A DNA stretch of 20,502 nucleotides, taken from the NCBI GenBank assembly GCA_000004985.1, contig GG738953.1. One strand, written 5' to 3'. This DNA is from Naegleria gruberi (Eukaryota). Below, one piece after another: positions 5 through 20,502 of the stretch (position 1 is its first letter; each line of letters starts with the position of its first letter). The notes beneath the pieces are model-generated. The model was given only the letters and a program-made list of their open reading frames with translations, had not been told where the DNA came from and did not search any database. A program made the position numbers and the translations under genes.

Positions 5-634
5 TTAGCAGGACTTGAAATTATTGAAATAAGTTTTGGTATTCTCTGAAAATTCGGTAAATTGTTCCTTCACTTTTTCATGGGAGTGTTTCATTTCAAA
101 ATTAATATCAAGAATGTTCTTTTCCAATTCTACTGATTTCTTATCACAATTACCACTTCCAGTCATTGCCTCCTTCAATTCAATACCTCTCTTGAAAGCA
201 TGAGCAGATTCTAAATAATCCCCACAATGATACAATGCCACACCATAAACAAAATTCCACACATAGGTCGCATCCAAACTCTCATCCAAATGCAATGCAA
301 GTTTGATATCCTCCAAAGCTCCCTCATATTTCATAGCAGCCAATCTCACCACAGCTCTCTGCACATGCAATCTGGCAACTTGTGGATCTTGTGTAGTGTC
401 GGCCTTGATCTTTCCTTCCAATTTACTCTCAGCAATTAATTGTTTTCGGAATAAAATCTTCTCCTTCAAGTCCTTTGAAATATGACTCACTCCACTCTCA
501 ATCTTTTCATTATTCTTTCTGATGCTAACATCAATGGAATGAACCAAATTGATGACCCGAGAAACAGCTAACATTCCCACTCCTAAAGGAAAGAAGAGAA
601 TGAGAAGAGGTCCTGAAATTGGTGAGCCACACAT
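5..634 (-). CDS. TPR-repeat protein with N-terminal transmembrane anchor (Tom70/Tom20-like architecture); partial, because the 3' end continues past the window start.
   Basis: The ATG at 634-632 sits in an 'aacaacATGt' context. The N-terminal hydrophobic helix LLILFFPLGVGMLAVSRVI is followed by a charged linker. Two TPR-like helix pairs follow (AAMKYEGALEDIKLALHLD and YVWNFVYGVALYHCGDYLESAHAFKRGIEL). The open frame runs to the window edge with no stop. Confidence 0.5.
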   Translation of the reverse strand: MCGSPISGPLLILFFPLGVGMLAVSRVINLVHSIDVSIRKNNEKIESGVSHISKDLKEKILFRKQLIAESKLEGKIKADTTQDPQVARLHVQRAVVRLAAMKYEGALEDIKLALHLDESLDATYVWNFVYGVALYHCGDYLESAHAFKRGIELKEAMTGSGNCDKKSVELEKNILDINFEMKHSHEKVKEQFTEFSENTKTYFNNFKSC

Positions 635-1076
635 GTTGTTTCTTGACTTTAGATAACGATGATGAATTTGGTGTTTATAATAAACAGGTGATAGATACCA
701 AAATCCTGGTTTTCAACGTTTTTTTTTGAAGAAATACTGGAACTACGCATCACCAAGTTCATCACAGTAAAAATTCTGATGCAAATATACATTCACATTA
801 CCTCTTTCTTAAATGACCAAAATGGAGAATGCTCAAGGTCTTTTCTTATTGATTACACTCAAGTAAATCCCTAATACAATTCAGTTTTGAGATAGGATAT
901 GAAGATGAAACATGAAGGATTGTATTGTGGTTGATTAATAAATTTTAATTAAGAGGTAGCTCAATATGAACTCTATCCTTAATAATGAAATATTGAGCAA
1001 CTTGGAACTTGCAGCATCTACTAAATCAAAGTGAGTCTGTTATCACCAGACATATGTGAACAATTTAGTTTAAATC

Positions 1077-1359
1077 TCAAACAATGAAAGAAAATATTAA
1101 TCCCATATTCGAACCTATACTAATACCAAAGAGCAAGAAAAAGGTCATCATTGTTCCAGCAATTTCCTTCTCGTTATTCTCTACACACTGAGGAGCAAAC
1201 ATCATCAATAATGAGCACAAGTAACCATTCGAAATTGAGACAAGGAAAATTGAAAAGAGTGGGAAGGCGTCGTAAACATAATCATTATAACCAAATAGGC
1301 TAGGTCTATAATAAAATAAAAAGAGTGGTACGAAAAATACTCTCAATAACACTGGAATG
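1077..1359 (-). CDS. C-terminal fragment of a polytopic membrane protein; the 5' part is lost in the N run.
   Basis: The open frame emerging from the N run ends at TGA 1077-1079. Its ~90 aa are strongly hydrophobic and look like 2-3 TM helices (IPVLLRVFFVPLFLFYY..., MTFFLLFGISIGSNMGLIFSFIV). No family assignment is possible. Confidence 0.3.
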
Positions 1360-5705: not shown

Positions 5706-6273
5706 TAATAATCGACATGTTGATATCATGAAGCATGATTTGATACTATTCTCGTTCAATGGAACGGGAAAGACGTGGCTTACTTGTTTGTATTGTTTGC
5801 AACAAATATTGGCGGGAAAAGTTAGGAGAGTCATTGTAGTTTGTCCAATATTGGAATATTGTCATCAATATGAAGAAAACTTAAAGACAATGATTGGATC
5901 TACTACTGATTCACAAGATGTTTTCTCATTCAAAATATTGAATAGTGCAACAGAAACGAAGGAATCAACGAAACATGTTAATATTATCATTAGTAGTTTA
6001 TCGAGATTGTTGGGATTTATTAGAAGAGGAATTATTGATACAACAGATGTGGATTTAATTATAGTGGATGATTTCGAATATTCAAAATCGTTGAATTCAT
6101 TGCAAGATTTCAAATATTTCTTTTCAAGATTTAACAACGCAAGAGCGATTGTTTCAACTGAAGGTGATAAGAAGATAATTCCACCAGTATTGAATAATCC
6201 TGCAATACTTTGTAGTATTCCTTTCAGTAATGAAAGTTATTACAATTACATCAATTTTGTTGGAAATCATTGA
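5706..6273 (+). CDS. Helicase-like P-loop ATPase domain fragment (SF1 UvrD/PIF1-like RecA domain 1A: motifs I, Ia, II, III); the 5' end is in the gap and the frame ends at TGA 6271-6273.
   Basis: The frame is open from the gap edge. Walker A is FNGTGKTWL. A motif Ia-like VIVVCPILEYCHQ follows. A motif II-like LIIVDDFEYS (compare UvrD VDEFQD, PIF1 LIIDEISM) lies ~93 aa after Walker A. A motif III-like IVSTEGDKKIIPPV (compare GDxxQLPPV) lies ~30 aa later. The order and spacing are canonical. The DE->DD and SAT/LVGD->STEG substitutions suggest a degenerate or inactive ATPase. Confidence 0.5.
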
Positions 6274-6322
6274 GCATATCAACATCACTAATCTTTTGAT
6301 ATCTCAAAAATTGGATTTGAAG

Positions 6323-6386
6323 AACCATTGATTTGTACCTAAAGCGAGTATTGGAGTATTGGCATACAGTTATTAGTTTACCAAAT
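6323..6386 (+). CDS. Putative upstream exon of the F-box-like gene (the 5' boundary is uncertain and there is no ATG, so a further upstream exon is required).
   Basis: In frame after TGA 6318-6320 the sequence reads ..IDLYLKRVLEYWHTVISLPN. It ends in a complete codon at 6386, followed directly by the donor GTAAGG (6387-6392). Joining it to the 6529 exon gives ISLPN|VVSLSLVCKEWNRI, which is F-box consensus ..LP..L..L.VCK.W..I. Alternative acceptor AGs lie at 6321/6322 or 6343/6344. Confidence 0.3.
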
Positions 6387-6528
6387 GTAAGGGCCTTGCC
6401 TAGTGTTATGAGTTATTATCGTGCACATGGAGTGAGTCCATCCCCAAACGTGTTATTAAATGAAACTAAACAAATTATAATTTAATAATTGAAAATGCAT
6501 AAACTAATCATTTCTGGATTATTCACAG

Positions 6529-7188
6529 GTTGTAAGTCTCTCCCTTGTATGCAAGGAGTGGAATCGGATAGCAAGTTGCAATGATTTGTGGGAATTTTAC
6601 TTTCATTTACTTTCGAATAATCGGAAGGGAAAAACAAAAGTTTCTTCCGATACTATTTCACAAGATGAAAATTTCTGGAAACACAAAATGAGAGATAATT
6701 TCACTCAATATGCTTGCAGAGTTTCTAACAAGATTACACTTTATCAAAATTATTTACAAATTTGTGAATTGAAAGGAAATTTCCCTAACAAGTTTTCATC
6801 ACAATTGACCAGAATGATTCTAGCAAGAATGATGATCAATTCCATTCAATATACAGATGATTTAAACCTTAAACCATTCCAACAATATTTGGGGTTTAAA
6901 GAGCACTTTCATGCAACTATACATTTCAAGTTGACTGTGAAAATTAGTGGAATTGATGAGCCACTAATTGTAAGAACCAACTCGTATATTTACAAAGGAG
7001 ATATACCCTATTTTAGTTATCATTATTTAGATAATTATTACTTGTACTTTGCTAAGGAAAGTGATGACAAATTAAGGAATGAAATATTTATGAATGAGCC
7101 TTGTCCAGTTTACCGAATAAACGTGATTTTCCGCTTTTCGATTTCTTTTCGGTTGCGTTTTGTTAATAAAATTTTTGTTTTTATTTGA
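6529..7188 (+). CDS. F-box-like protein, main exon (the second half of the F-box is followed by a ~200-aa domain of unknown function).
   Basis: The acceptor is ttctggattattcacag|GTT at 6528/6529, with a branch-like 'aaactaat' ~20 nt upstream. The exon opens with VVSLSLVCKEWNRIASCNDLW, the diagnostic C-terminal half of an F-box. The open frame continues 220 codons to TGA 7186-7188. The last ~30 codons (EPCPVYRINVIFRFSISFRLRFVNKIFVFI) are low-complexity and overlap the 3' end of the transposase gene on the other strand, so the true stop or 3' exon is uncertain. Confidence 0.5.
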   Translation, partial: VVSLSLVCKEWNRIASCNDLWEFYFHLLSNNRKGKTKVSSDTISQDENFWKHKMRDNFTQYACRVSNKITLYQNYLQICELKGNFPNKFSSQLTRMILARMMINSIQYTDDLNLKPFQQYLGFKEHFHATIHFKLTVKISGIDEPLIVRTNSYIYKGDIPYFSYHYLDNYYLYFAKESDDKLRNEIFMNEPCPVYRINVIFRFSISFRLRFVNKIFVFI

Positions 7189-8086
7189 AAAGAACATTTG
7201 GTGGTTGTTTGCGGACAGGTTGAAAGCTGAGTGACAAGTTTGTCAACTTAGAGCAAATACGAACAATTCGTTGGTGCTTTTTAAGGTCACCTCTATAGGT
7301 ATGATGTACTATTTTAAACTTTTTAAATCTTCCGATTACTTGTTCAACAACAACTCTTCCTTGTCCTAATGTCTTGTTGTAGGATGCATCAAACGAAGAG
7401 AGCGATTGTCCTTTTTTCGCTTTCACTGGCGAAATTACGTGTTTTGCTTTTTTGTACGCTTTATCACCTAACACTCTTTCGTCTGGACCAATGTTCGGTT
7501 CTTTTTCTTGCAACCATTCATCCCACATCTTTTTGTCATGCATCGCACCAGGATACGCATTTGAAACATCAAGAATTTTCGCTGTTGTCAAACTCACTAA
7601 CATTTGATACTTCAATGCATGCATTCGCTTTTTATACGAATAATACAATTTCTGTTTGGCCCATAGTTTTTGCTTTTCGATTCTGCTTAATCCGGATTTC
7701 TTTCTACCAGACGGATTTTCAATCCTACATTCTGTACCATCAACAACAACTTTAATCCTTCTGAACATACCAGTAGCTGTGTTATTAATATCTTTTCTAT
7801 CATCAATATTTAGTGGTGGTAGATTGTTATCTAATACTTTTTGTCCTTTTTCAATGTTTGTGAAATATGATGAACGTGAAACATTCCAGTAAACAGGATG
7901 AACAAGTGAATTCGGATAAAGTGTTAAATATTCCATCAATATTAAAAACCATTTTTCACTCAATTTGTACTTGATGAATTTGTTGTAAATATATTGAAGT
8001 TGAGTAGAAGAAAAGCCAAATGATGCTCTAAAAGCACGTTCGTTTCCTTTTGGAAAGATGTTTTTGTATGTTGAAAAGAGAGGCAT
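7181..8086 (-). CDS. PIF/Harbinger-superfamily DDE transposase (DDE_Tnp_4-like), an intact 301-aa ORF.
   Basis: An N-terminal HTH-like segment (RAFRASFGFSSTQLQYI) is followed by the three acidic-residue motifs in canonical order and spacing. These are VVDGTECRIENP (D1), AYPGAMHDKKMW (D2, compare G.PGS.HD) and LGDKAYKKAK (D3, compare LGDSGY). The C-terminal motif YNKTLGQGRVVVEQVIGRFKKFKIV (compare R..VE..FG.LK.RF..L) follows. There are no internal stops, the start is ATG at 8086-8084 and the stop is TAA at 7183-7181. Confidence 0.85.
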   Translation of the reverse strand: MPLFSTYKNIFPKGNERAFRASFGFSSTQLQYIYNKFIKYKLSEKWFLILMEYLTLYPNSLVHPVYWNVSRSSYFTNIEKGQKVLDNNLPPLNIDDRKDINNTATGMFRRIKVVVDGTECRIENPSGRKKSGLSRIEKQKLWAKQKLYYSYKKRMHALKYQMLVSLTTAKILDVSNAYPGAMHDKKMWDEWLQEKEPNIGPDERVLGDKAYKKAKHVISPVKAKKGQSLSSFDASYNKTLGQGRVVVEQVIGRFKKFKIVHHTYRGDLKKHQRIVRICSKLTNLSLSFQPVRKQPPNVLFK

Positions 8087-8148
8087 TTTATTCGAATCCT
8101 AAATATTTAAATTTAAAAAATATTCGAATAAAAAGTTTCGAAAAAAAA
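8087..8148. promoter_or_regulatory. 62-bp AT-rich divergent intergenic region with three TTCGAA-core palindromes (a putative bidirectional promoter or protein-binding site).
   Basis: The region lies between the ATG at 8086 (- strand) and the ATG at 8149 (+ strand). ATTCGAAT occurs at 8090-8097, TATTCGAATA at 8121-8130 and TTTCGAAA at 8136-8143. Confidence 0.35.
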
Positions 8149-9249
8149 ATGCCTCCAAAGAAAGCCACTTCAGGAAAAGAAAAACCAAAAGAGAAACCGG
8201 TAGAGAAAAAAGCGGTTGAAGCGAAGCCTCGGTTTTTAGCAGCAGACAAGGTAAAATTAAAGGATTTTTACTTAAAAAACAAGAAAGCAGGTGTAAAGCA
8301 AGAGAGTGTGTTTACTTCATTCGGCCAACTTTATGGTTATTCTAATTCACAAGTGAGAAGAGCATATTATTCGATTTTCGGTAAACAAAAAACAAAAAAC
8401 GAAACCGAAACCGAACCGGAAGATGACGATGTTTCCGAAAATGTTGATGATGATATGATAGAAAGACAAGAATTTACTGATAGAATGGACAGTTATCTTG
8501 CTGAATCTGAGCAAAAAACTGAGAAGAAGAGAAAGAGACAACTTGAGAAGGAGCCAACTTATGATGATGATGATGATGAATGTGATTACGAACAATCAGA
8601 TGAAGATTACGAATATTCGGATGAAGATATTTTACCGGCAACTCCGTCGAAAGTAACAAAAGTAGTGAGCATTAATGACAAATCAACAAGTTTATTCCGT
8701 CCTTTTAGATTCGAATCAGAAACTCATCGCTTCATCATTTATAGATTTCCCACATGGACTGATTTTAAATTTTCACATGTGGAGATGTCAAAAGAAAAGA
8801 TGATAGTTATTCATGTGAAGATTAATGCTAAACTTTCCGAAAGTTGTGTAGTAGAATCTTTCGCTCCATTTGCGAAAAATTTAAAAGCGAACACTGACAG
8901 AAAGGATGAACAGTTCACCATCAAAGAACCGGTTCCGAAAGATGTTGATGTTAAAACTGTAAAGTGTGGTCCTTTGAATTTGAAAGGCGTTTACGATTTG
9001 GATGACCGTGTATTCGCAGTGCTATTAGAAAAGAAATTGCAAACATTCGCACCAACTTTTGATGCTAATGAATTGTCAAATTTCATTGCGAAGGCTTCTG
9101 TTACAAGTAGCTCTTCTGACACACAACTTGTCAACACTCAAACATCACAAGCGCTTACCAGCAACTCCACTGCCGCCACAACAGAAGATGCAACCGGCAA
9201 CAAAGAAATCGCAAACGCAACTCAAAACACAAGAGAAGAGTCTGAATAA
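8149..9249 (+). CDS. Lysine-rich N-terminal / acidic-central protein (366 aa); a possible Harbinger ORF2 partner or a host chromatin-type protein.
   Basis: ATG 8149 sits in an 'aaaaaaaaATGc' context. The ORF is uninterrupted to TAA 9247-9249. The N-terminal region is rich in K/E/P (MPPKKATSGKEKPKEKPVEKK). A helix-rich aromatic segment (FLAADKVKLKDFYLKNK...FGQLYGYSNSQVRRAYYSIF) is followed by an acidic tract DDDDDECDYEQSDEDYEYSDED, then a beta-rich segment and an S/T-rich tail. The longer ORF start at 8050 was rejected because it overlaps the transposase start on the opposite strand. Confidence 0.55.
   Translation: MPPKKATSGKEKPKEKPVEKKAVEAKPRFLAADKVKLKDFYLKNKKAGVKQESVFTSFGQLYGYSNSQVRRAYYSIFGKQKTKNETETEPEDDDVSENVDDDMIERQEFTDRMDSYLAESEQKTEKKRKRQLEKEPTYDDDDDECDYEQSDEDYEYSDEDILPATPSKVTKVVSINDKSTSLFRPFRFESETHRFIIYRFPTWTDFKFSHVEMSKEKMIVIHVKINAKLSESCVVESFAPFAKNLKANTDRKDEQFTIKEPVPKDVDVKTVKCGPLNLKGVYDLDDRVFAVLLEKKLQTFAPTFDANELSNFIAKASVTSSSSDTQLVNTQTSQALTSNSTAATTEDATGNKEIANATQNTREESE
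8563..8580 (+). repeat. (GAT)5-GAA microsatellite inside the CDS, encoding DDDDDE.
   Basis: The literal sequence gatgatgatgatgatgaa lies in frame with the 8149 ORF. Confidence 0.6.
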
Positions 9250-9326
9250 ACAATTTCACTTCTGCTTTCATTCGAATTTCCGAATTTTCCTGTTTTTCCG
9301 TTAAGTCGGACACAGCTCAATAATGG

Positions 9327-12250
9327 NNNNNNNNNNNNNNNNNNNNNNNNNNNNNNNNNNNNNNNNNNNNNNNNNNNNNNNNNNNNNNNNNNNNNNNNNN
9401 NNNNNNNNNNNNNNNNNNNNNNNNNNNNNNNNNNNNNNNNNNNNNNNNNNNNNNNNNNNNNNNNNNNNNNNNNNNNNNNNNNNNNNNNNNNNNNNNNNNN
9501 NNNNNNNNNNNNNNNNNNNNNNNNNNNNNNNNNNNNNNNNNNNNNNNNNNNNNNNNNNNNNNNNNNNNNNNNNNNNNNNNNNNNNNNNNNNNNNNNNNNN
9601 NNNNNNNNNNNNNNNNNNNNNNNNNNNNNNNNNNNNNNNNNNNNNNNNNNNNNNNNNNNNNNNNNNNNNNNNNNNNNNNNNNNNNNNNNNNNNNNNNNNN
9701 NNNNNNNNNNNNNNNNNNNNNNNNNNNNNNNNNNNNNNNNNNNNNNNNNNNNNNNNNNNNNNNNNNNNNNNNNNNNNNNNNNNNNNNNNNNNNNNNNNNN
9801 NNNNNNNNNNNNNNNNNNNNNNNNNNNNNNNNNNNNNNNNNNNNNNNNNNNNNNNNNNNNNNNNNNNNNNNNNNNNNNNNNNNNNNNNNNNNNNNNNNNN
9901 NNNNNNNNNNNNNNNNNNNNNNNNNNNNNNNNNNNNNNNNNNNNNNNNNNNNNNNNNNNNNNNNNNNNNNNNNNNNNNNNNNNNNNNNNNNNNNNNNNNN
10001 NNNNNNNNNNNNNNNNNNNNNNNNNNNNNNNNNNNNNNNNNNNNNNNNNNNNNNNNNNNNNNNNNNNNNNNNNNNNNNNNNNNNNNNNNNNNNNNNNNNN
10101 NNNNNNNNNNNNNNNNNNNNNNNNNNNNNNNNNNNNNNNNNNNNNNNNNNNNNNNNNNNNNNNNNNNNNNNNNNNNNNNNNNNNNNNNNNNNNNNNNNNN
10201 NNNNNNNNNNNNNNNNNNNNNNNNNNNNNNNNNNNNNNNNNNNNNNNNNNNNNNNNNNNNNNNNNNNNNNNNNNNNNNNNNNNNNNNNNNNNNNNNNNNN
10301 NNNNNNNNNNNNNNNNNNNNNNNNNNNNNNNNNNNNNNNNNNNNNNNNNNNNNNNNNNNNNNNNNNNNNNNNNNNNNNNNNNNNNNNNNNNNNNNNNNNN
10401 NNNNNNNNNNNNNNNNNNNNNNNNNNNNNNNNNNNNNNNNNNNNNNNNNNNNNNNNNNNNNNNNNNNNNNNNNNNNNNNNNNNNNNNNNNNNNNNNNNNN
10501 NNNNNNNNNNNNNNNNNNNNNNNNNNNNNNNNNNNNNNNNNNNNNNNNNNNNNNNNNNNNNNNNNNNNNNNNNNNNNNNNNNNNNNNNNNNNNNNNNNNN
10601 NNNNNNNNNNNNNNNNNNNNNNNNNNNNNNNNNNNNNNNNNNNNNNNNNNNNNNNNNNNNNNNNNNNNNNNNNNNNNNNNNNNNNNNNNNNNNNNNNNNN
10701 NNNNNNNNNNNNNNNNNNNNNNNNNNNNNNNNNNNNNNNNNNNNNNNNNNNNNNNNNNNNNNNNNNNNNNNNNNNNNNNNNNNNNNNNNNNNNNNNNNNN
10801 NNNNNNNNNNNNNNNNNNNNNNNNNNNNNNNNNNNNNNNNNNNNNNNNNNNNNNNNNNNNNNNNNNNNNNNNNNNNNNNNNNNNNNNNNNNNNNNNNNNN
10901 NNNNNNNNNNNNNNNNNNNNNNNNNNNNNNNNNNNNNNNNNNNNNNNNNNNNNNNNNNNNNNNNNNNNNNNNNNNNNNNNNNNNNNNNNNNNNNNNNNNN
11001 NNNNNNNNNNNNNNNNNNNNNNNNNNNNNNNNNNNNNNNNNNNNNNNNNNNNNNNNNNNNNNNNNNNNNNNNNNNNNNNNNNNNNNNNNNNNNNNNNNNN
11101 NNNNNNNNNNNNNNNNNNNNNNNNNNNNNNNNNNNNNNNNNNNNNNNNNNNNNNNNNNNNNNNNNNNNNNNNNNNNNNNNNNNNNNNNNNNNNNNNNNNN
11201 NNNNNNNNNNNNNNNNNNNNNNNNNNNNNNNNNNNNNNNNNNNNNNNNNNNNNNNNNNNNNNNNNNNNNNNNNNNNNNNNNNNNNNNNNNNNNNNNNNNN
11301 NNNNNNNNNNNNNNNNNNNNNNNNNNNNNNNNNNNNNNNNNNNNNNNNNNNNNNNNNNNNNNNNNNNNNNNNNNNNNNNNNNNNNNNNNNNNNNNNNNNN
11401 NNNNNNNNNNNNNNNNNNNNNNNNNNNNNNNNNNNNNNNNNNNNNNNNNNNNNNNNNNNNNNNNNNNNNNNNNNNNNNNNNNNNNNNNNNNNNNNNNNNN
11501 NNNNNNNNNNNNNNNNNNNNNNNNNNNNNNNNNNNNNNNNNNNNNNNNNNNNNNNNNNNNNNNNNNNNNNNNNNNNNNNNNNNNNNNNNNNNNNNNNNNN
11601 NNNNNNNNNNNNNNNNNNNNNNNNNNNNNNNNNNNNNNNNNNNNNNNNNNNNNNNNNNNNNNNNNNNNNNNNNNNNNNNNNNNNNNNNNNNNNNNNNNNN
11701 NNNNNNNNNNNNNNNNNNNNNNNNNNNNNNNNNNNNNNNNNNNNNNNNNNNNNNNNNNNNNNNNNNNNNNNNNNNNNNNNNNNNNNNNNNNNNNNNNNNN
11801 NNNNNNNNNNNNNNNNNNNNNNNNNNNNNNNNNNNNNNNNNNNNNNNNNNNNNNNNNNNNNNNNNNNNNNNNNNNNNNNNNNNNNNNNNNNNNNNNNNNN
11901 NNNNNNNNNNNNNNNNNNNNNNNNNNNNNNNNNNNNNNNNNNNNNNNNNNNNNNNNNNNNNNNNNNNNNNNNNNNNNNNNNNNNNNNNNNNNNNNNNNNN
12001 NNNNNNNNNNNNNNNNNNNNNNNNNNNNNNNNNNNNNNNNNNNNNNNNNNNNNNNNNNNNNNNNNNNNNNNNNNNNNNNNNNNNNNNNNNNNNNNNNNNN
12101 NNNNNNNNNNNNNNNNNNNNNNNNNNNNNNNNNNNNNNNNNNNNNNNNNNNNNNNNNNNNNNNNNNNNNNNNNNNNNNNNNNNNNNNNNNNNNNNNNNNN
12201 NNNNNNNNNNNNNNNNNNNNNNNNNNNNNNNNNNNNNNNNNNNNNNNNNN
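9327..12250. other. Run of 2924 N (gap or masked) interrupting the EGF-repeat gene.
   Basis: A literal n-run is present. Confidence 0.99.
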
Positions 12251-13782
12251 CGGCTAGAATACCATTACACTTTGGGATTGAACAAAATCTTCCTCCCCAA
12301 TGAGTTTCATCATTACATTTGCAAATGTCATCTGCCAAACAATTTCCTCTTCCATTACAAACATTTTCCATGGTCGACAAAGTGCCATTACACTTCAAGA
12401 TTTGACAGTCATTACCACCAAATGCATACGTATCGAAACATTGACATTGATTTGGGGAAATGCATTGACCTCTGGAATTGCAAACTGTTGGATCTGATGC
12501 TGATGTCAAATTACATTTTGGAACGTCACATTTCAATCCATTCCATTGAGATTGATCTCTACAGACACATGTATCATGAGATACACAATCACCTCTTCCT
12601 GAACAAACACTGCTTGTTTGATTTGCTATTATTCCAAAACATACTGGAATTTCACATTTCTCACCAACATATCTTGACGTGTTGAAGCATTGACAGGTAT
12701 TAAGTGCAATACAAGAGCCATTTCCTGAACAAACTGTTTCATCATTTGCTAAAGTACCATTACATTTTGGAATTTCACAATTTTCACCTCCATAATTAGA
12801 ATTACATTTACAATAATTGTAACGTTCACAAATTCCATTACCATTACATGCAGTAGATGAGTTTGAAAACTTTCCAAAACATGTTGTTACTGTACACTCA
12901 GGTCCATAATAATTTTCATTACACATGCATGTATTCACATCAACACATGTTCCATTTCCATGACATGCTAAAAAAGGATATTTGCTTTCAGATGATTTCC
13001 CATAACATTCAGGAAGACATGTTCTTCCATCACCACTCAACACATAACCAACACCATCACAATATGGATAAACCTTCTTAATCAATCCAGCAACATCATC
13101 AGCAATATAAATCTCATTCTTATTCTCCCTCACAAAAACATTAAAAGGAGAATCCAAGTAACAATTCACTGGATCAGAATTGTCTGGACATCCACTCGAG
13201 GAATTTGTACTTCCAGCAATGATTTCCACTTGTCTATTTTGAATCTTTTTAACCTGCTTCAATCCAGGATCAGCAACAAACAATTCATCATGTGCTGTGT
13301 AATATAATCCCATTGGATTATTCCATGGAGTGGCTGTGAAATTTGCATCATTGAATGGTGGATACTCTGGATAAGGATTCCAATCTGGAGTGCTAGCACT
13401 GAATATGGTGTATGTTTCAGGAAGAACTAATCTCATAATTTTCCCATAATAAATATAGTAAATGTCACCTGTTAGTGGTGATGCAACTATTCCACCATCG
13501 GTAGGTGATAAACCACAATTAGTGAACCAGTTAAATGAATTATAATTTGCCAAACTATAGTAACCCACGCAATTGTTACCAACATCCATGAAAAGCAACC
13601 AATTGTGAAATTTATCGATGGAAAGCATCTTTCCAAAGTACATGACATTAGGTAGAGTTGTAATAGTTGTTTTTCCATAGTTGAGTGCTCTTATTTTCAT
13701 ACTAAAATATTCAGATAGGTAGACTTTCTCTTGTGCTTCATCAACAGCAATAAAAGGTTGATCTATAAATCTTTCGTTTCGA
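12251..13782 (-). CDS. Secreted NHL-repeat beta-propeller plus tandem tenascin-type EGF repeat protein, exon 2; the 3' end continues into the N run.
   Basis: A 1.5-kb frame is open on the minus strand. NHL-like blades are present (NNPMGLYYTAHDELFVADPGLKQVKKI; LDSPFNVFVRENKNEIYIADDVAGLIKKV; RFIDQPFIAVDEAQEKVYLSEY). At least 6 tandem ~39-aa repeats follow, each C-x(10-12)-C-x-G-x-G-x-C-x5-C-x-C-x(7-8)-G-x-x-C-x-x-P-K (for example CNGTLANDETVCSGNGSCIALNTCQCFNTSRYVGEKCEIPV). There are many N-x-S/T sites. The acceptor is ttctaaactag|T at 13783/13782, and a proximal alternative is tattttag|T at 13702/13701. Both are in phase with exon 1. Confidence 0.75.
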
Positions 13783-13895
13783 CTAGTTTAGAATAGTTTA
13801 CTTACTGCCAAGAGGAGCCATAAAAACGCTCAAAGTTCCATTAAAAACAGTTCTAATTAATTTAAATAATTAGTAAACTGTGAAAAATCACTTAC

Positions 13896-14095
13896 AATAT
13901 CCTATTTTTGTAATAGTTGTTTTCATTGTTGTGTTCTGCAATGAACATGTCTCCATTGGCCAACACATGTACTGCTCGTGGCATGTTCAACGAGCTGACA
14001 GCTGTCGTGATTTTGAACTTGACATTTAATGCACTGCACATGCCCAACAAAAGCACGAGGACAAATGCAAATAAAAACGTAAGGTTATTATGCAT
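13896..14095 (-). CDS. Exon 1 of the NHL/EGF protein gene, carrying the signal peptide and the first NHL-like segment.
   Basis: ATG 14095-14093 sits in a 'caaaaaaaATGc' context. The signal peptide is MHNNLTFLFAFVLVLLLGMCSA|LNV. The segment VHVLANGDMFIAEHNNENNYYKNRI is NHL-like. The exon ends in phase 2 (..ATA TT) and is followed by a consensus donor GTAAGT at minus-strand 13895-13890. Joining to 13782 gives ..KNRIF RNERFIDQPFIAVD.. in frame. Confidence 0.6.
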
Positions 14096-14309
14096 TTTTT
14101 TGTGGAGTCATGAAGATGCAACAACTATTTCACAAGTGCAAAAAAGAATGACATCTGAATGAATACTATCAATTTTAGAGAGTGAAAGTAATGAACTAAC
14201 GGTTCAATGTTCCATTTCAGACAATATTACAATAATATCACATATTATTCTCATGATTATTGGTTATACAATAGATTATGATTCAGCTTTGGATGAACTT
14301 TAAATTATA

Positions 14310-14330
14310 CAATTAGATTAGATCTAATTG
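14310..14330. repeat. Perfect 9-3-9 palindrome, caattagat-tag-atctaattg, ~215 bp upstream of the NHL/EGF gene start.
   Basis: Read directly from the sequence. It is a candidate dimeric transcription-factor site, and nothing more can be said. Confidence 0.3.
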
Positions 14331-14480
14331 GTTTGTTCCATTTGGATTTTGCATATTTTTCTATACGTTTACCAATTGAAATGTTACAAATATCACATAC
14401 AACAAAACTTTTATCAATTAATAGAACATTATCAACAACACTTTCTTGTTATTAGTCAACATGTTACCACAGTGGAAGGA

Positions 14481-18365: not shown

Positions 18366-18555
18366 TGCATTTTTTAGTTATTAATTTTTTCTCGAGAAGC
18401 GTGGTGGAAATTAAGCTTTGATCGGAATGACAACAAACTAACACCTTCATCAAAGCATGAATATTTATGATATTATTATTCGCAGTTAACTGCAATTTCA
18501 AAATCTCTGAGAATAAGAATCTCATCCACACCAATGAAACTAACGATTTAAAAAA

Positions 18556-19050
18556 ATGTCAAACTTTGTTGATCTGCCATCCGAGTTGCAAATTGAAATA
18601 TTTTCCATTCTCTCTGTTAAACATTTGAGAAATATTCTTTCAATTAACAAATCAATTCATGAGCAATTGATTCAATCAGAAACATTTTGGAGAACCTTGA
18701 TCAAGAATTATTCGAAAGTGATCGGAGAAAGTGCTTATGGAGTTGAACAAGCATCACAAGAATTATTCGAAATTGAAAATGTCAAGAAACAGTTAATTGA
18801 AATGATAGAAATAAAAAAGAGAAAAACTAAACAATTCCAACAGATGTCTATGGAATTAGAATACATGTTAAGAGAATTAGAAATGGTTCAGAGAGAAATG
18901 AATGCACGAAATGAAAGTACTTTGCTATTGGGAGGAAACATCAGTGATCAATTCAAAAATCAAATTGAAAGTTTGAAGCAAAAAGGTGAAAGTGTGAAAA
19001 AGGAAACGGAAGAAATTGCAGAAAAGTTAAAGAAAACGATTATTGATTAA
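18556..19050 (+). CDS. F-box domain protein (164 aa) with a C-terminal coiled-coil-like region.
   Basis: ATG 18556 sits in an 'aaaaaaATGt' context. The N-terminal F-box is LPSELQIEIFSILSVKHLRNILSINKSIHEQL (LP.E..IEIFS.L....L.....K). The remainder is K/E-rich with heptad-like hydrophobic spacing. The stop is TAA at 19048-19050. Confidence 0.7.
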   Translation: MSNFVDLPSELQIEIFSILSVKHLRNILSINKSIHEQLIQSETFWRTLIKNYSKVIGESAYGVEQASQELFEIENVKKQLIEMIEIKKRKTKQFQQMSMELEYMLRELEMVQREMNARNESTLLLGGNISDQFKNQIESLKQKGESVKKETEEIAEKLKKTIID

Positions 19051-19664: not shown

Positions 19665-20201
19665 TTACAATTTGTTGGATAACCAATCCAATCCCTCGAA
19701 TAAACCAGAACCATTCAAAGCACTACATGGCTGTATGTACCAATCTTGCTTGATTGAATTTAATTGTAGATTCTTTGCAATATCTGTGACATTAGCAGCT
19801 CTCGGTAAATCTTGCTTATTAGCCCACACCAATAACTTGGCATTTGACAATGATGGATCCTCCATCACTTTATGCAATGTTTCTGACACTTCTTCAAATC
19901 TCTCTCTATCATTCGAATCTACAATGAAAATCACAGCATCTGTTCCATTGTAATAGTGTCTCCACAAGGTTCTAATCATATCCTGACCACCAATGTCAAA
20001 AACTCTGAATTGAACTCTCTTGTATTGAATCACTTCGGCATTGAAACCAATGGTAGGTATAGTACTGACATTCTCATCTAATTGTATCTTGTACAGAGTT
20101 GAGGTTTTACCAGCTGCATCCAAACCTAGGAAGAGAATTTTGGCTTCCTTTTGTTCGAATAAGGACAAGCCCTTGATCATGTTAGAAAGTAATTGACCCA
20201 T
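19665..20201 (-). CDS. ARF: ADP-ribosylation factor (ARF-family small GTPase, ARF1-like), an intronless 178-aa ORF.
   Basis: ATG 20201 sits in a 'caaaaATGG' context. The protein starts with Gly2 (N-myristoylation). G1 is GLDAAGKT, G3 is DIGGQ and G4 is [26 protein letters not shown] and the C-terminal [13 protein letters not shown] are near-identical to ARF1 signatures. The stop is TAA at 19664-19662. Confidence 0.9.
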
Positions 20202-20502
20202 TTTTGAATTAATTATTGAAGAATGATATAATTGAAGTTTTGTTGTTTTTTTTCAAATTGTTGTTGAGTAATTTTCAGTAATATTCTGCAGTTTTAAAGT
20301 GAAATCCACGCAATTCTGTCGTCATCATTTTTTTGTAAACTTGAAAAATGTCGTCAGCAGCAGATAAATATAGATTGTCTTGTAAATTTACCATAGTAGT
20401 GTTTGGTGTAGTGACAAAGCTCAAAAAGCTATTGACTCGACAATCACGTGATTATGTGTTAATGTTTCAATTGAAAACATGAAAGAATAAAAGCAAAAGT
20501 AA

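What the first reader, a model, noticed from the sequence alone, without database searches (positions are those of the whole stretch)
12251..14095. Secreted NHL-propeller / tenascin-type EGF tandem-repeat glycoprotein whose repeat array coincides with a 2.9-kb gap
The protein has a signal peptide exon and at least 5 NHL-like blades. It then enters a tandem array of ~117-bp (39-aa) 6-Cys EGF modules that runs straight into the N run. A diverged tandem coding array is exactly what collapses assemblies, so the gap probably hides many more repeats (about 25 more if it is uniform). The NHL plus tenascin-EGF combination is the teneurin-like toolkit in the reverse order. The protein is heavily N-glycosylated, so it is likely a surface or adhesion molecule.
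Basis: partly seen in the sequence, partly recalled or inferred. Interest (0 to 1): 0.5.

Follow-up and report, generated by a model that had tools for sequence, protein, structure and literature searches.

The report
Naegleria NHL-propeller/EGF-repeat surface protein, gap-truncated
This is the front half of an ordinary, already catalogued Naegleria gruberi gene for a cell-surface protein (a six-bladed NHL propeller on a long EGF-repeat stalk), and the part hidden by the assembly gap can be read from an identical copy elsewhere in the same genome assembly: about 11.5 more EGF repeats, a short stalk and a membrane anchor.

Summary
The window is a complete 20.5-kb Naegleria gruberi scaffold, and 54% of it is N. 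On the minus strand (ATG at 14095, two 43-nt introns, open frame to the gap edge at 12251) it encodes a signal peptide, an N-terminal domain that folds as a six-bladed NHL-type propeller, a Cys hairpin, and six complete EGF modules plus 6 residues of a seventh. The EGF modules are of the EGF_2/teneurin type. They are 39-42 aa long (about 123 bp, not 117 bp).

The gene is already annotated as NAEGRDRAFT_76295, with an artefactual C-terminus. NAEGRDRAFT_49505, on a 417-kb scaffold of the same assembly, matches it at 465 of 465 residues and continues for 628 aa past the gap edge. That continuation gives 18 EGF modules in total, a stalk of about 120 aa, a Ser/Pro linker and a terminal hydrophobic tail that is GPI-signal-like.

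So the gap most likely does hide more repeats, but about 11.5 rather than 25, plus non-repeat sequence. The causal claim fails. The modules are only 44-60% identical in DNA, the array is a continuous X-free product on the other scaffold, and every contig of this scaffold ends in a gap.

The protein is not a teneurin or a tenascin. It belongs to an uncharacterised heterolobosean family of NHL-EGF surface proteins. Interest is low.

The parts
13896..14095 (-). Exon 1: start codon (14095-14093), signal peptide (residues 1-22, 14095-14030) and most of propeller blade 1
   Evidence: ORF and splice-site reading. Hydrophobic core with KD mean 2.7 and C-S-A at -3..-1. The N-terminus is identical in public model P0001.
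13853..13895 (-). Intron 1, 43 nt, GTAAGT...TAG
   Evidence: The same junction is used by P0001. No transcript evidence was available.
13806..13852 (-). Exon 2, 47 nt (residues 67-82, TVFNGTLSVFMAPLG), the outer strands of blade 1
13763..13805 (-). Intron 2, 43 nt, GTAAGT...TAG
13062..13762 (-). The part of exon 3 that encodes propeller blades 2-6 (residues ~83-316). Blades 5-6 (13415-13062) carry the recognisable NHL sequence signature.
   Evidence: The AlphaFold2 model has 24 strands, pLDDT 84.6 and pTM 0.85. Foldseek against the PDB gives NHL propellers at E 1e-13 to 1e-15 and TMq 0.67-0.73. phmmer against the PDB gives SOQ1 NHL at 1.2e-6 and Pizza6 at 1.4e-5. The homology signal is concentrated in domain residues 200-300.
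13008..13061 (-). Cys-containing beta-hairpin/linker (residues 317-334, CDGVGYVLSGDGRTCLPE) between the propeller and the EGF array
   Evidence: Strands E300-302 and E309-311 in the model. Similar PxC...GxC junctions are visible in segments of N. gruberi paralogues P0052 and P0124.
12270..13007 (-). Six complete 6-Cys EGF modules (residues 335-580; 42, 39, 41, 42, 41, 41 aa), with pattern C-x10-13-C-x5-C-x5-C-x-C-x8-10-C-x4
   Evidence: Pfam EGF_2 5e-21 and EGF_Teneurin 1.3e-18. Module dissection. DNA repeat spacings are multiples of about 123 bp.
12251..12269 (-). First 6 codons (CNGILA) plus 1 nt of EGF module 7, cut by the gap
   Evidence: The continuation GNSSQCLGRGDC... is read from P0032.
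9327..12250 (.). Assembly gap (2924 N). It is inferred to hold the remaining 1886 nt of the CDS (rest of module 7, modules 8-18, stalk, Ser/Pro linker, hydrophobic C-terminus, stop) plus about 1 kb of 3' UTR and intergenic sequence.
   Evidence: P0032 (NAEGRDRAFT_49505) is identical over the 465-aa overlap and extends 628 aa further. The left flank is the 3' end of a convergent gene.
12626..12644 (-). 19-nt GT..AG 'intron' used only by public model P0001 to leave the EGF frame and reach a stop at 12533-12535. This is an annotation artefact, not part of the gene.
   Evidence: The P0001 C-terminus QIKQAVF...NGMD is the +1 frame. P0032 reads straight through in the EGF frame.
8143..9249 (+). Convergent neighbour NAEGRDRAFT_82314 (366 aa; stop at 9247-9249). 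It bounds the space available for the EGF gene's 3' end.

Best explanation
The region is the 5' 48% of a Naegleria gruberi gene for a surface protein of about 1214 aa. From N- to C-terminus it has a cleavable signal peptide, a six-bladed NHL-type beta-propeller, a short Cys hairpin, 18 tandem EGF modules (17 canonical and one degenerate), a non-EGF stalk of about 120 aa, a Ser/Pro-rich linker and a hydrophobic tail at the very C-terminus. That tail is GPI-attachment-signal-like, or otherwise a tail-less TM segment.

Shown: the domain composition, the fold of the propeller, the module count in the identical twin, and the enrichment and positional conservation of N-glycosylation sequons in the C1-C2 loop.

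Inferred: the protein is anchored in the plasma membrane by its C-terminus. The rigid, glycosylated EGF rod, roughly 45-55 nm long if each module contributes 2.5-3 nm, holds the propeller away from the cell surface. There the top face of the propeller binds a ligand on substrate, prey or another cell. In other words it acts as an adhesion or recognition receptor.

The gap is an ordinary low-coverage break in a leftover small scaffold whose EGF-gene contig duplicates a locus assembled on a 417-kb scaffold. It most likely hides the rest of module 7, 11 more modules, the stalk, the anchor and about 1 kb of non-coding DNA. It is not a collapsed repeat.
For: - Organism and annotation: 100% match to N. 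gruberi proteins P0001 (this scaffold) and P0032 (417,575-bp scaffold).
- Gene model.
- EGF: Pfam EGF_2 and EGF_Teneurin above their cutoffs in the window part. In the full-length twin, EGF_2 is 1.5e-50 and EGF_TEN 137 bits against a cutoff of 65.
- Propeller: AF2 pLDDT 84.6, pTM 0.85 and 24 strands. Foldseek top hits are PknD/Pizza6, teneurin NHL and SOQ1 NHL. PDB phmmer hits. An exhaustive phmmer search gives 5187 hits, and 9 of the 10 proteins sampled are PF01436/TEN_NHL proteins.
- Gap content: the 465/465 identical overlap continues with 628 more residues, or 1886 nt, which is less than 2924 nt.
- Anchor: the only hydrophobic 19-mers outside the signal peptide are at 1190-1214, with 0 residues after them. 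Relatives end either in a TM segment plus basic tail or in the same kind of terminal hydrophobic tail.
- Glycosylation: 30 sequons against 19.7 +/- 3.8 expected (P=0.007), and 14 of 18 modules have one in loop 1 (P=0.0013).
- The gap is not repeat-driven: TRF finds nothing. DNA identity between modules is 44-60% and the longest shared exact word is 13 nt. Across all 18 modules the maximum aa identity is 51% and the longest shared peptide is 11 aa. The assembly is Sanger-based. The scaffold is 54% N, and other gap edges cut a DEAD-helicase ORF and another ORF.
Against: - The DNA of the 417-kb scaffold could not be retrieved. Identity is therefore known only at protein level, and the nature of the twin (same locus assembled twice, allele, or very recent duplicate) is unresolved.
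- The gene across the gap (NAEGRDRAFT_82314) has no twin on the 417-kb scaffold. A Harbinger-type transposase ORF lies 1.2 kb from the left gap edge. So this copy's 3' end could differ from the twin's.
- Pfam's NHL HMM does not hit this protein, and blades 1-4 have almost no sequence matches.
- The AF2 alignment was built from NHL proteins, which could bias the model.
- No signal-peptide or GPI predictor, transcript data or experimental data were available, so function is inferred from architecture only.
- Module 13 is degenerate and might be a gene-model artefact in the twin.
Confidence: 0.78

Rival explanations
1. One reading: the EGF array is a long, uniform tandem repeat that collapsed or broke the assembly. 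The gap would then hold about 25 more EGF modules.
For: The array runs in frame straight into the N run. The gap divided by the unit length gives about 24-25 (own arithmetic). More EGF modules do follow in the twin.
Against: The twin has only about 11.5 further modules, followed by 163 non-EGF residues. The modules are 44-60% identical in DNA with no shared word longer than 13 nt, and TRF finds no array. Sanger reads span several such modules. The twin's product runs through the whole array without X. Gaps bound every contig of this scaffold.
Confidence: 0.05
2. This scaffold carries a separate, recently duplicated and 3'-truncated copy of NAEGRDRAFT_49505 whose downstream part was replaced or interrupted by mobile-element DNA. 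The gap would then hide a TE junction rather than the rest of the gene.
For: There is a DDE_Tnp_4 (Harbinger/PIF) ORF at 7184-8098, E=4.2e-29. The adjacent gene has only a 79% paralogue on another small scaffold and no twin on the 417-kb scaffold. The twin's model departs from the window sequence at 13647-13657, so the two copies are not base-for-base identical everywhere.
Against: There are no amino-acid differences in 465 residues, and the frame is intact up to the last base before the gap. No terminal inverted repeats were found. The gap estimate comfortably fits the missing 1886 nt. Mate-pair joins to repeat-bearing contigs are a common cause of such mixed small scaffolds (own knowledge).
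Confidence: 0.15
3. The protein is a secreted (non-anchored) matrix or cyst-wall glycoprotein rather than a membrane-anchored receptor.
For: It has a signal peptide, Cys-rich EGF repeats and many sequons. Tenascin-like EGF arrays occur in matrix proteins (own knowledge).
Against: The twin ends in a 22-residue hydrophobic segment preceded by a Ser/Pro-rich linker. Paralogues P0021, P0016 and P0002 have clear TM segments plus cytoplasmic tails.
Confidence: 0.15

Closest known systems
N. gruberi / heterolobosean NHL-EGF surface-protein paralogues (e.g. P0021, N. gruberi predicted protein, 589 aa; P0016 and P0017 of N. lovaniensis; EGF-array proteins of Acrasis kona)
   Same: The order of parts is the same: signal peptide, NHL propeller, tandem EGF modules of the same CNGT/CFG...C-x-C type, then a C-terminal membrane anchor. 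P0021 aligns over 85% of the query, and the propeller-to-EGF junction aligns.
   Different: Identity to P0021 is only 26-29%. This protein has 18 EGF modules against 2-13 in the relatives. Blades 1-4 are so diverged that Pfam NHL fails. It has a terminal hydrophobic tail (GPI-like) instead of a TM segment plus basic tail as in P0021 and P0016.
Teneurins (animal type II transmembrane adhesion proteins)
   Same: Both combine an EGF array with a six-bladed NHL propeller. Pfam's teneurin-derived profiles EGF_Teneurin and EGF_TEN score above cutoff. Teneurin NHL domains are among the best structural matches, with TMq up to 0.73.
   Different: The domain order is reversed and the membrane topology is opposite (N-terminal signal peptide, C-terminal anchor). 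There is no intracellular domain, TTR, FN-plug, YD/RHS shell, ABD or Tox-GHH. TEN_NHL does not hit this protein. The resemblance is shared generic modules, not family membership.
Tenascins
   Same: Both have a tandem array of short 6-Cys EGF modules with a C-x-C motif in a glycosylated extracellular protein.
   Different: Pfam EGF_Tenascin scores 13.8 bits against a cutoff of 25. The modules are about 41 aa with a long C1-C2 loop, against about 31 aa in tenascins (own knowledge). There are no FN3 repeats, fibrinogen globe or N-terminal assembly domain.
PknD extracellular sensor domain (M. tuberculosis) and its designed derivative Pizza6
   Same: These are the best fold matches: a six-bladed NHL propeller with E 8e-15 to 2e-13, TM 0.81-0.86 normalised to the target and about 17-21% identity. 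Pizza6 is also found by sequence, E=1.4e-5. In both cases the propeller is an extracellular ligand-sensing domain tethered to a membrane.
   Different: PknD is bacterial, is linked to a Ser/Thr kinase and has no EGF array. Its blades are near-identical, whereas here they are strongly diverged, with a low-confidence insertion of about 30 residues between blades 4 and 5.
LDL-receptor family YWTD propeller-EGF units
   Same: A six-bladed propeller is directly followed by EGF modules in a surface receptor. Megalin appears among the structural hits at rank 47.
   Different: That propeller belongs to a different sequence family (YWTD/LY repeats). The match is much weaker (rmsd 12.6). No LDL-A repeats are present.

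Membership tests
NHL-repeat beta-propeller | Pfam PF01436 (NHL) or PF25021 (TEN_NHL) hit at or above the gathering score | tested here: not met
   No NHL or TEN_NHL hit at E<=10 for the 586-aa window protein, and none at E<=0.01 for P0032.
NHL-repeat beta-propeller | Significant sequence similarity to proteins that are bona fide NHL-repeat proteins | tested here: met
   phmmer against the PDB: SOQ1 NHL domain 1.2e-6, Pizza6 1.4e-5. The exhaustive search gives 5187 hits at E<=1e-3. Of the 10 proteins sampled, 9 carry PF01436 and TEN_NHL far above cutoff. The signal is confined mainly to blades 5-6.
NHL-repeat beta-propeller | Six four-stranded blades forming a closed propeller that superposes on solved NHL propellers | tested here: met
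   The AF2 model has pLDDT 84.6, pTM 0.85 and 24 strands. Foldseek against the PDB places PknD/Pizza6, teneurin and SOQ1 NHL domains on top, E 1e-13 to 1e-15. Caveat: this is a predicted structure and the alignment was made of NHL proteins.
EGF-like domain (EGF_2 / teneurin-type EGF) | Six-cysteine module with a C-x-C motif that scores above the Pfam gathering threshold and is tandemly repeated | tested here: met
   EGF_2 75.2 bits (cutoff 22.1) and EGF_Teneurin 67.2 bits (cutoff 24.3), six stretches each. The regular Cys spacing is shown.
Tenascin | Tenascin-type EGF (PF18720) above threshold | tested here: not met
   13.8 bits against a cutoff of 25.
Tenascin | FN3 repeats and a C-terminal fibrinogen-like globe | tested here: not met
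   Pfam on the full-length twin returns only EGF families. The C-terminal 167 aa have no Pfam hit.
Teneurin | Type II topology: N-terminal cytoplasmic domain, then TM, then EGF array upstream of the NHL propeller | tested here: not met
   There is an N-terminal cleavable signal peptide, the NHL propeller precedes the EGF array, and the hydrophobic anchor is at the C-terminus.
Teneurin | YD/RHS shell, TTR, FN-plug and Tox-GHH/ABD domains | tested here: not met
   No such Pfam families in the window protein or in P0032.
Teneurin | EGF_TEN (PF25024) profile above threshold | tested here: met
   137.1 bits against a cutoff of 65 in the full-length twin. The window part alone scores only 48 bits. 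This shows EGF-type similarity only.
Heterolobosean NHL-EGF surface-protein paralogue group (informal) | Signal peptide, then NHL propeller, then tandem EGF modules of the CNGT/CFG type, then a C-terminal membrane anchor | tested here: met
   The reconstructed 1214-aa protein has all four parts. P0021 shows the same order with Pfam NHL+EGF and a TM segment.
GPI-anchored protein | C-terminal hydrophobic segment with no cytoplasmic residues, preceded by a polar linker with small omega-site residues | tested here: inconclusive
   The twin ends ...SERLSSAISLFSNVALISTVLVVGVVFY with 0 residues after the hydrophobic stretch. No GPI predictor was available, and the spacer between the candidate SSA site and the hydrophobic run is short.
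GPI-anchored protein | Release by PI-PLC, or a lipid anchor detected | not testable with these tools
   Needs experiment.

The most novel reading that the evidence does not exclude
Heterolobosean amoebae independently assembled a teneurin-like toolkit (NHL propeller plus long EGF rod) into a family of lipid- or TM-anchored recognition receptors. In this member, blades 1-4 have diverged beyond sequence recognition because the ligand-binding face is under diversifying selection for prey, substrate or mating/self recognition. This would be a protist analogue of animal adhesion receptors.
Probability: 0.1. Interest if true: 0.45.

Novelty: new member of a known kind. Interest (0 to 1): 0.14.

Why it matters
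It matters little for biology at large. The gene is already in GenBank and UniProt as two partial models (D2W4G3 and D2VH00), and it is built from two very common extracellular modules.

The practical gains are modest:
- Neither public model is complete. Joining them gives the first full-length reading (1214 aa) and shows that an entry annotated only as 'EGF-like domain-containing' actually has a signal peptide and an unannotated NHL propeller.
- Both models carry identifiable artefacts: a 19-nt pseudo-intron in one and an out-of-frame start in the other.
- The case shows that a coding repeat touching an N run is not evidence that the repeat caused the gap.

The NHL-EGF surface-protein family of Naegleria and Acrasis is uncharacterised. 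It could be relevant to adhesion or prey recognition in free-living and pathogenic Naegleria, but nothing here shows that.

Tried and rejected
- Tandem Repeats Finder on 12251-14480 found no array, only a 10-nt microrepeat in intron 2.
- Pfam on the window protein at E<=10 gave no NHL family.
- A word-index homology search with the N-terminal domain alone found only the protein itself. It also missed the identical twin, which only the exhaustive HMMER search found.
- The look-up of encoding contigs for P0032 and P0001 returned nothing, because N. gruberi is not in the positional index. The twin's DNA, its flanks and nucleotide-level identity could therefore not be examined.
- I tested whether the whole scaffold is a duplicate of the 417-kb scaffold by searching the gene across the gap. 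The result was negative: only a 79% paralogue on another small scaffold.
- An inverted-repeat search for transposon termini around the DDE ORF found nothing convincing.
- The C-terminal stalk had no Pfam hit and only a marginal BLASTP match to P0017, E=0.23.
- The literature holds no paper mentioning either locus tag or accession, and none on Naegleria NHL/EGF proteins. The genome paper (Cell 2010) is not in the library.
- I considered and rejected filing the protein as a teneurin or tenascin homologue (see the membership tests).
- I did not use the second structure job on the stalk, because no usable alignment exists.
Full report
WHAT THE WINDOW IS. The 20,502-base window is one entire scaffold of the Sanger-based Naegleria gruberi NEG-M assembly. 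The spliced product of the finding matches 'predicted protein [Naegleria gruberi]' (P0001 = NAEGRDRAFT_76295, XP_002668785.1, D2W4G3) at 100%, and that protein's only contig is 20,502 bp long. The sequencing technology is taken from Table 1 of PMC9928731. The scaffold consists of four short contigs (1359, 3621, 2230 and 2137 bp) separated by N runs of 4346, 2924 and 3885 bases, so 54% of it is N.

THE OBSERVATION. The gene lies on the minus strand. The ATG is at 14095-14093. Exon 1 runs to 13896. A 43-nt intron (GTAAGT...TAG) precedes a 47-nt exon 2 (13852-13806), and a second 43-nt intron precedes exon 3, which starts at 13762. Exon 3 is open all the way to 12251, the first base after the N run. 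The public model uses exactly these junctions.

The product visible in the window is 586 aa. Residues 1-22 form a typical signal peptide, with a 14-residue hydrophobic core and C-S-A before the predicted cut. Residues 335-580 form six complete six-cysteine EGF modules of 42, 39, 41, 42, 41 and 41 aa, followed by the first six residues (CNGILA) of a seventh. Pfam supports them strongly: EGF_2 at 5e-21 and EGF_Teneurin at 1.3e-18, six stretches each. The tenascin EGF model does not reach threshold (13.8 bits against 25).

The unit is therefore about 123 bp rather than 117 bp. DNA direct-repeat spacings of 123, 126, 246, 249 and 372 bp agree with this.

THE N-TERMINAL DOMAIN. Other evidence nevertheless supports an NHL propeller.
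- phmmer against PDB sequences finds the NHL domain of SOQ1 (1.2e-6) and the designed NHL propeller Pizza6 (1.4e-5).
- An exhaustive HMMER scan of 1.84 billion representatives gives 5187 hits at E<=1e-3. Nine of the ten proteins sampled carry PF01436 and TEN_NHL far above cutoff.
- The signal is concentrated in the last two blades (domain residues about 200-300). Blades 1-4 have almost no matches.
- An AlphaFold2 model of residues 23-334 with a 21-sequence alignment is confident (mean pLDDT 84.6, pTM 0.85). It has 24 strands, which is six four-stranded blades, plus a small C-terminal hairpin. The only poorly predicted part is an insertion of about 30 residues between blades 4 and 5.
- Foldseek against the PDB ranks six-bladed NHL propellers first: Pizza6 and PknD (E 8e-15 to 2e-13, TM 0.81-0.86 on the target), teneurin NHL domains (TMq up to 0.73) and SOQ1.

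The domain is thus a six-bladed, strongly diverged NHL-type propeller. One caveat is that the alignment given to AlphaFold2 consisted of NHL proteins.

WHAT THE GAP HIDES. The exhaustive search also returned P0032, 1105 aa, identical to the window protein. It is NAEGRDRAFT_49505 (XP_002676640.1, D2VH00), annotated on a 417,575-bp scaffold of the same assembly. From window residue 122 to the last residue before the gap, 465 of 465 residues are identical. P0032 then continues for 628 more residues.

Joining the two gives a 1214-aa protein:
- signal peptide, residues 1-22
- propeller, 23-316
- Cys hairpin, 317-334
- 18 EGF modules, 335-1051 (17 canonical; module 13 at 822-852 is degenerate)
- a non-EGF stalk, about 1052-1170, with no Pfam match
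- a Ser/Pro-rich linker
- a hydrophobic segment at 1193-1214 that ends the protein

The missing coding sequence is 1886 nt. That fits within the estimated 2924 nt and leaves about 1 kb for UTRs and the spacer to the convergent neighbour, whose stop codon is at 9247-9249.

WHY THERE IS A GAP. The proposed cause, collapse of a diverged tandem array, is not supported.
- Within the window the modules are 44-60% identical in DNA, and their longest shared exact word is 13 nt. Tandem Repeats Finder detects nothing.
- Across all 18 modules, amino-acid identity averages 38% with a maximum of 51%, and the longest shared peptide is 11 residues. The hidden part is therefore no more repetitive than the visible part.
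- Sanger reads of several hundred bases (read length from own knowledge) span several such modules.
- The twin's product runs through the whole array without X.
- Every contig of this scaffold ends in a gap. Two other gap edges cut non-repetitive ORFs: a DEAD-box helicase fragment opening at 5707 and a hydrophobic ORF opening at 1358.

The simplest reading is a leftover, low-coverage scaffold whose 2.2-kb contig duplicates a locus assembled elsewhere.

UNRESOLVED POINTS. I could not obtain the DNA of the 417-kb scaffold. Whether the twin is the same locus assembled twice, an allele or a very recent duplicate therefore remains open.

The gene across the gap (NAEGRDRAFT_82314) has no twin on the 417-kb scaffold, only a 79% paralogue on a 13-kb scaffold. 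A Harbinger/PIF-type DDE_Tnp_4 ORF lies next to it (E 4e-29). A truncated duplicate flanked by mobile DNA therefore remains a minor rival (about 0.15).

ANNOTATION ARTEFACTS. P0001 leaves the EGF frame through a 19-nt GT..AG 'intron' (12626-12644) and ends at a stop at 12533-12535. Its last 30 residues are out-of-frame sequence.

P0032 starts at an out-of-frame ATG: its MEKQLLQ is another frame of window 13678-13658. It then contains GDPLD, which is encoded nowhere in the window, before joining the true frame at VMYFGK. Neither public entry therefore shows the full architecture.

HOW IT PROBABLY WORKS. Shown: the domain order, the fold, the module count, the terminal hydrophobic tail, and significant sequon enrichment. 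There are 30 sequons against 19.7 +/- 3.8 expected (P=0.007), and 14 of 18 modules carry one in the C1-C2 loop (P=0.0013). For the window part alone, 11 against 7.6 is not significant.

Inferred: a C-terminally anchored surface glycoprotein in which the EGF rod projects the propeller, the likely ligand-binding head, tens of nanometres from the membrane. The anchor is GPI-like because nothing follows the hydrophobic segment, although relatives use either this kind of tail or a TM segment plus a basic tail. The likely role is an adhesion or recognition receptor. No experimental or literature evidence exists for this protein.

COMPARISON WITH KNOWN FAMILIES. The nearest relatives are uncharacterised heterolobosean proteins with the same layout. 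They include N. gruberi P0021 (NHL x6, EGF x4, TM, tail), N. lovaniensis P0016 and P0017, and EGF-array proteins of Acrasis kona.

The protein is not a teneurin. The order and topology are reversed, and there is no YD shell, TTR, FN-plug or toxin domain. It is not a tenascin either: the tenascin EGF model is below threshold, and there is no FN3 or fibrinogen domain. 'Teneurin toolkit in reverse order' is a fair description of two shared generic modules and nothing more.

VERDICT. This is a real feature that was read largely correctly. It is ordinary, already in the databases, and its gap is explained by an identical copy in the same assembly. Novelty: a new (uncharacterised) member of known kinds. 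Interest: about 0.14.

Noticed in passing
window 7184-8098 (-): An intact-looking 305-aa ORF with a DDE_Tnp_4 (Harbinger/PIF transposase) domain, E=4.2e-29. It lies 1.2 kb from the left edge of the gap. No terminal inverted repeats were found within 5706-9326.
   Followed up: partly
window 8143-9249 (+): NAEGRDRAFT_82314 (366 aa, acidic/lysine-rich, no Pfam domain) is convergent with the EGF gene. Its only relative is a 79%-identical partial protein on another small (13,269-bp) N. gruberi scaffold. It may be a transposon-associated second ORF or part of a dispersed repeat.
   Followed up: partly
window 12533-12644 (-): Public model NAEGRDRAFT_76295 (P0001) uses an implausible 19-nt GT..AG intron (12626-12644) to shift frame and terminate at 12533-12535 before the gap. 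Its last 30 residues (QIKQAVF...NGMD) are artefactual.
   Followed up: yes
window 13647-13678 (-) compared with P0032 residues 1-12: The twin model NAEGRDRAFT_49505 starts with MEKQLLQ (another frame of the window) followed by GDPLD, which no frame of the window encodes. GDPL(E) is the peptide encoded by the pUC18 polylinker GGGGATCCTCTAGAG (own knowledge). The 417-kb scaffold may therefore carry an untrimmed vector remnant or a local misassembly here. This could not be verified without that DNA.
   Followed up: partly
window 13658-13673 and 13908-13923: There is an exact 16-nt direct repeat, TTGTAATAGTTGTTTT, in exon 3 and exon 1, read in different frames. The twin model departs from the window sequence exactly at 13658, the edge of one copy. 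This may be chance.
   Followed up: no
window 5707-6270 (+) and 1080-1358 (-): Other gap edges also cut open reading frames: a DEAD/DEAH helicase fragment (E=3.3e-11) opens at the edge of gap 1, and a hydrophobic ORF runs into the other side of the same gap. Truncation by gaps is the rule on this scaffold.
   Followed up: partly
window 6508-7185 (+), 18544-19047 (+), 19668-20252 (-), 8-712 (-): Further gene fragments are present: two F-box-like ORFs, an Arf-family small GTPase (E=2.9e-63) and a weakly TPR-like ORF.
   Followed up: partly
P0032 residues 713-743 (= reconstructed residues 822-852, inside the gap): EGF module 13 is degenerate (CFGILANESNACNDTDQFCYAPNDCKPKNPL). It lacks the C-x-C motif and the last cysteine. 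It could be a real decayed module or a gene-model artefact in the twin.
   Followed up: no
tool behaviour: The word-index homology search never returned the 100%-identical twin P0032. Only the exhaustive HMMER scan did. Relying on the first tool alone would have left the gap content unknown.
   Followed up: no
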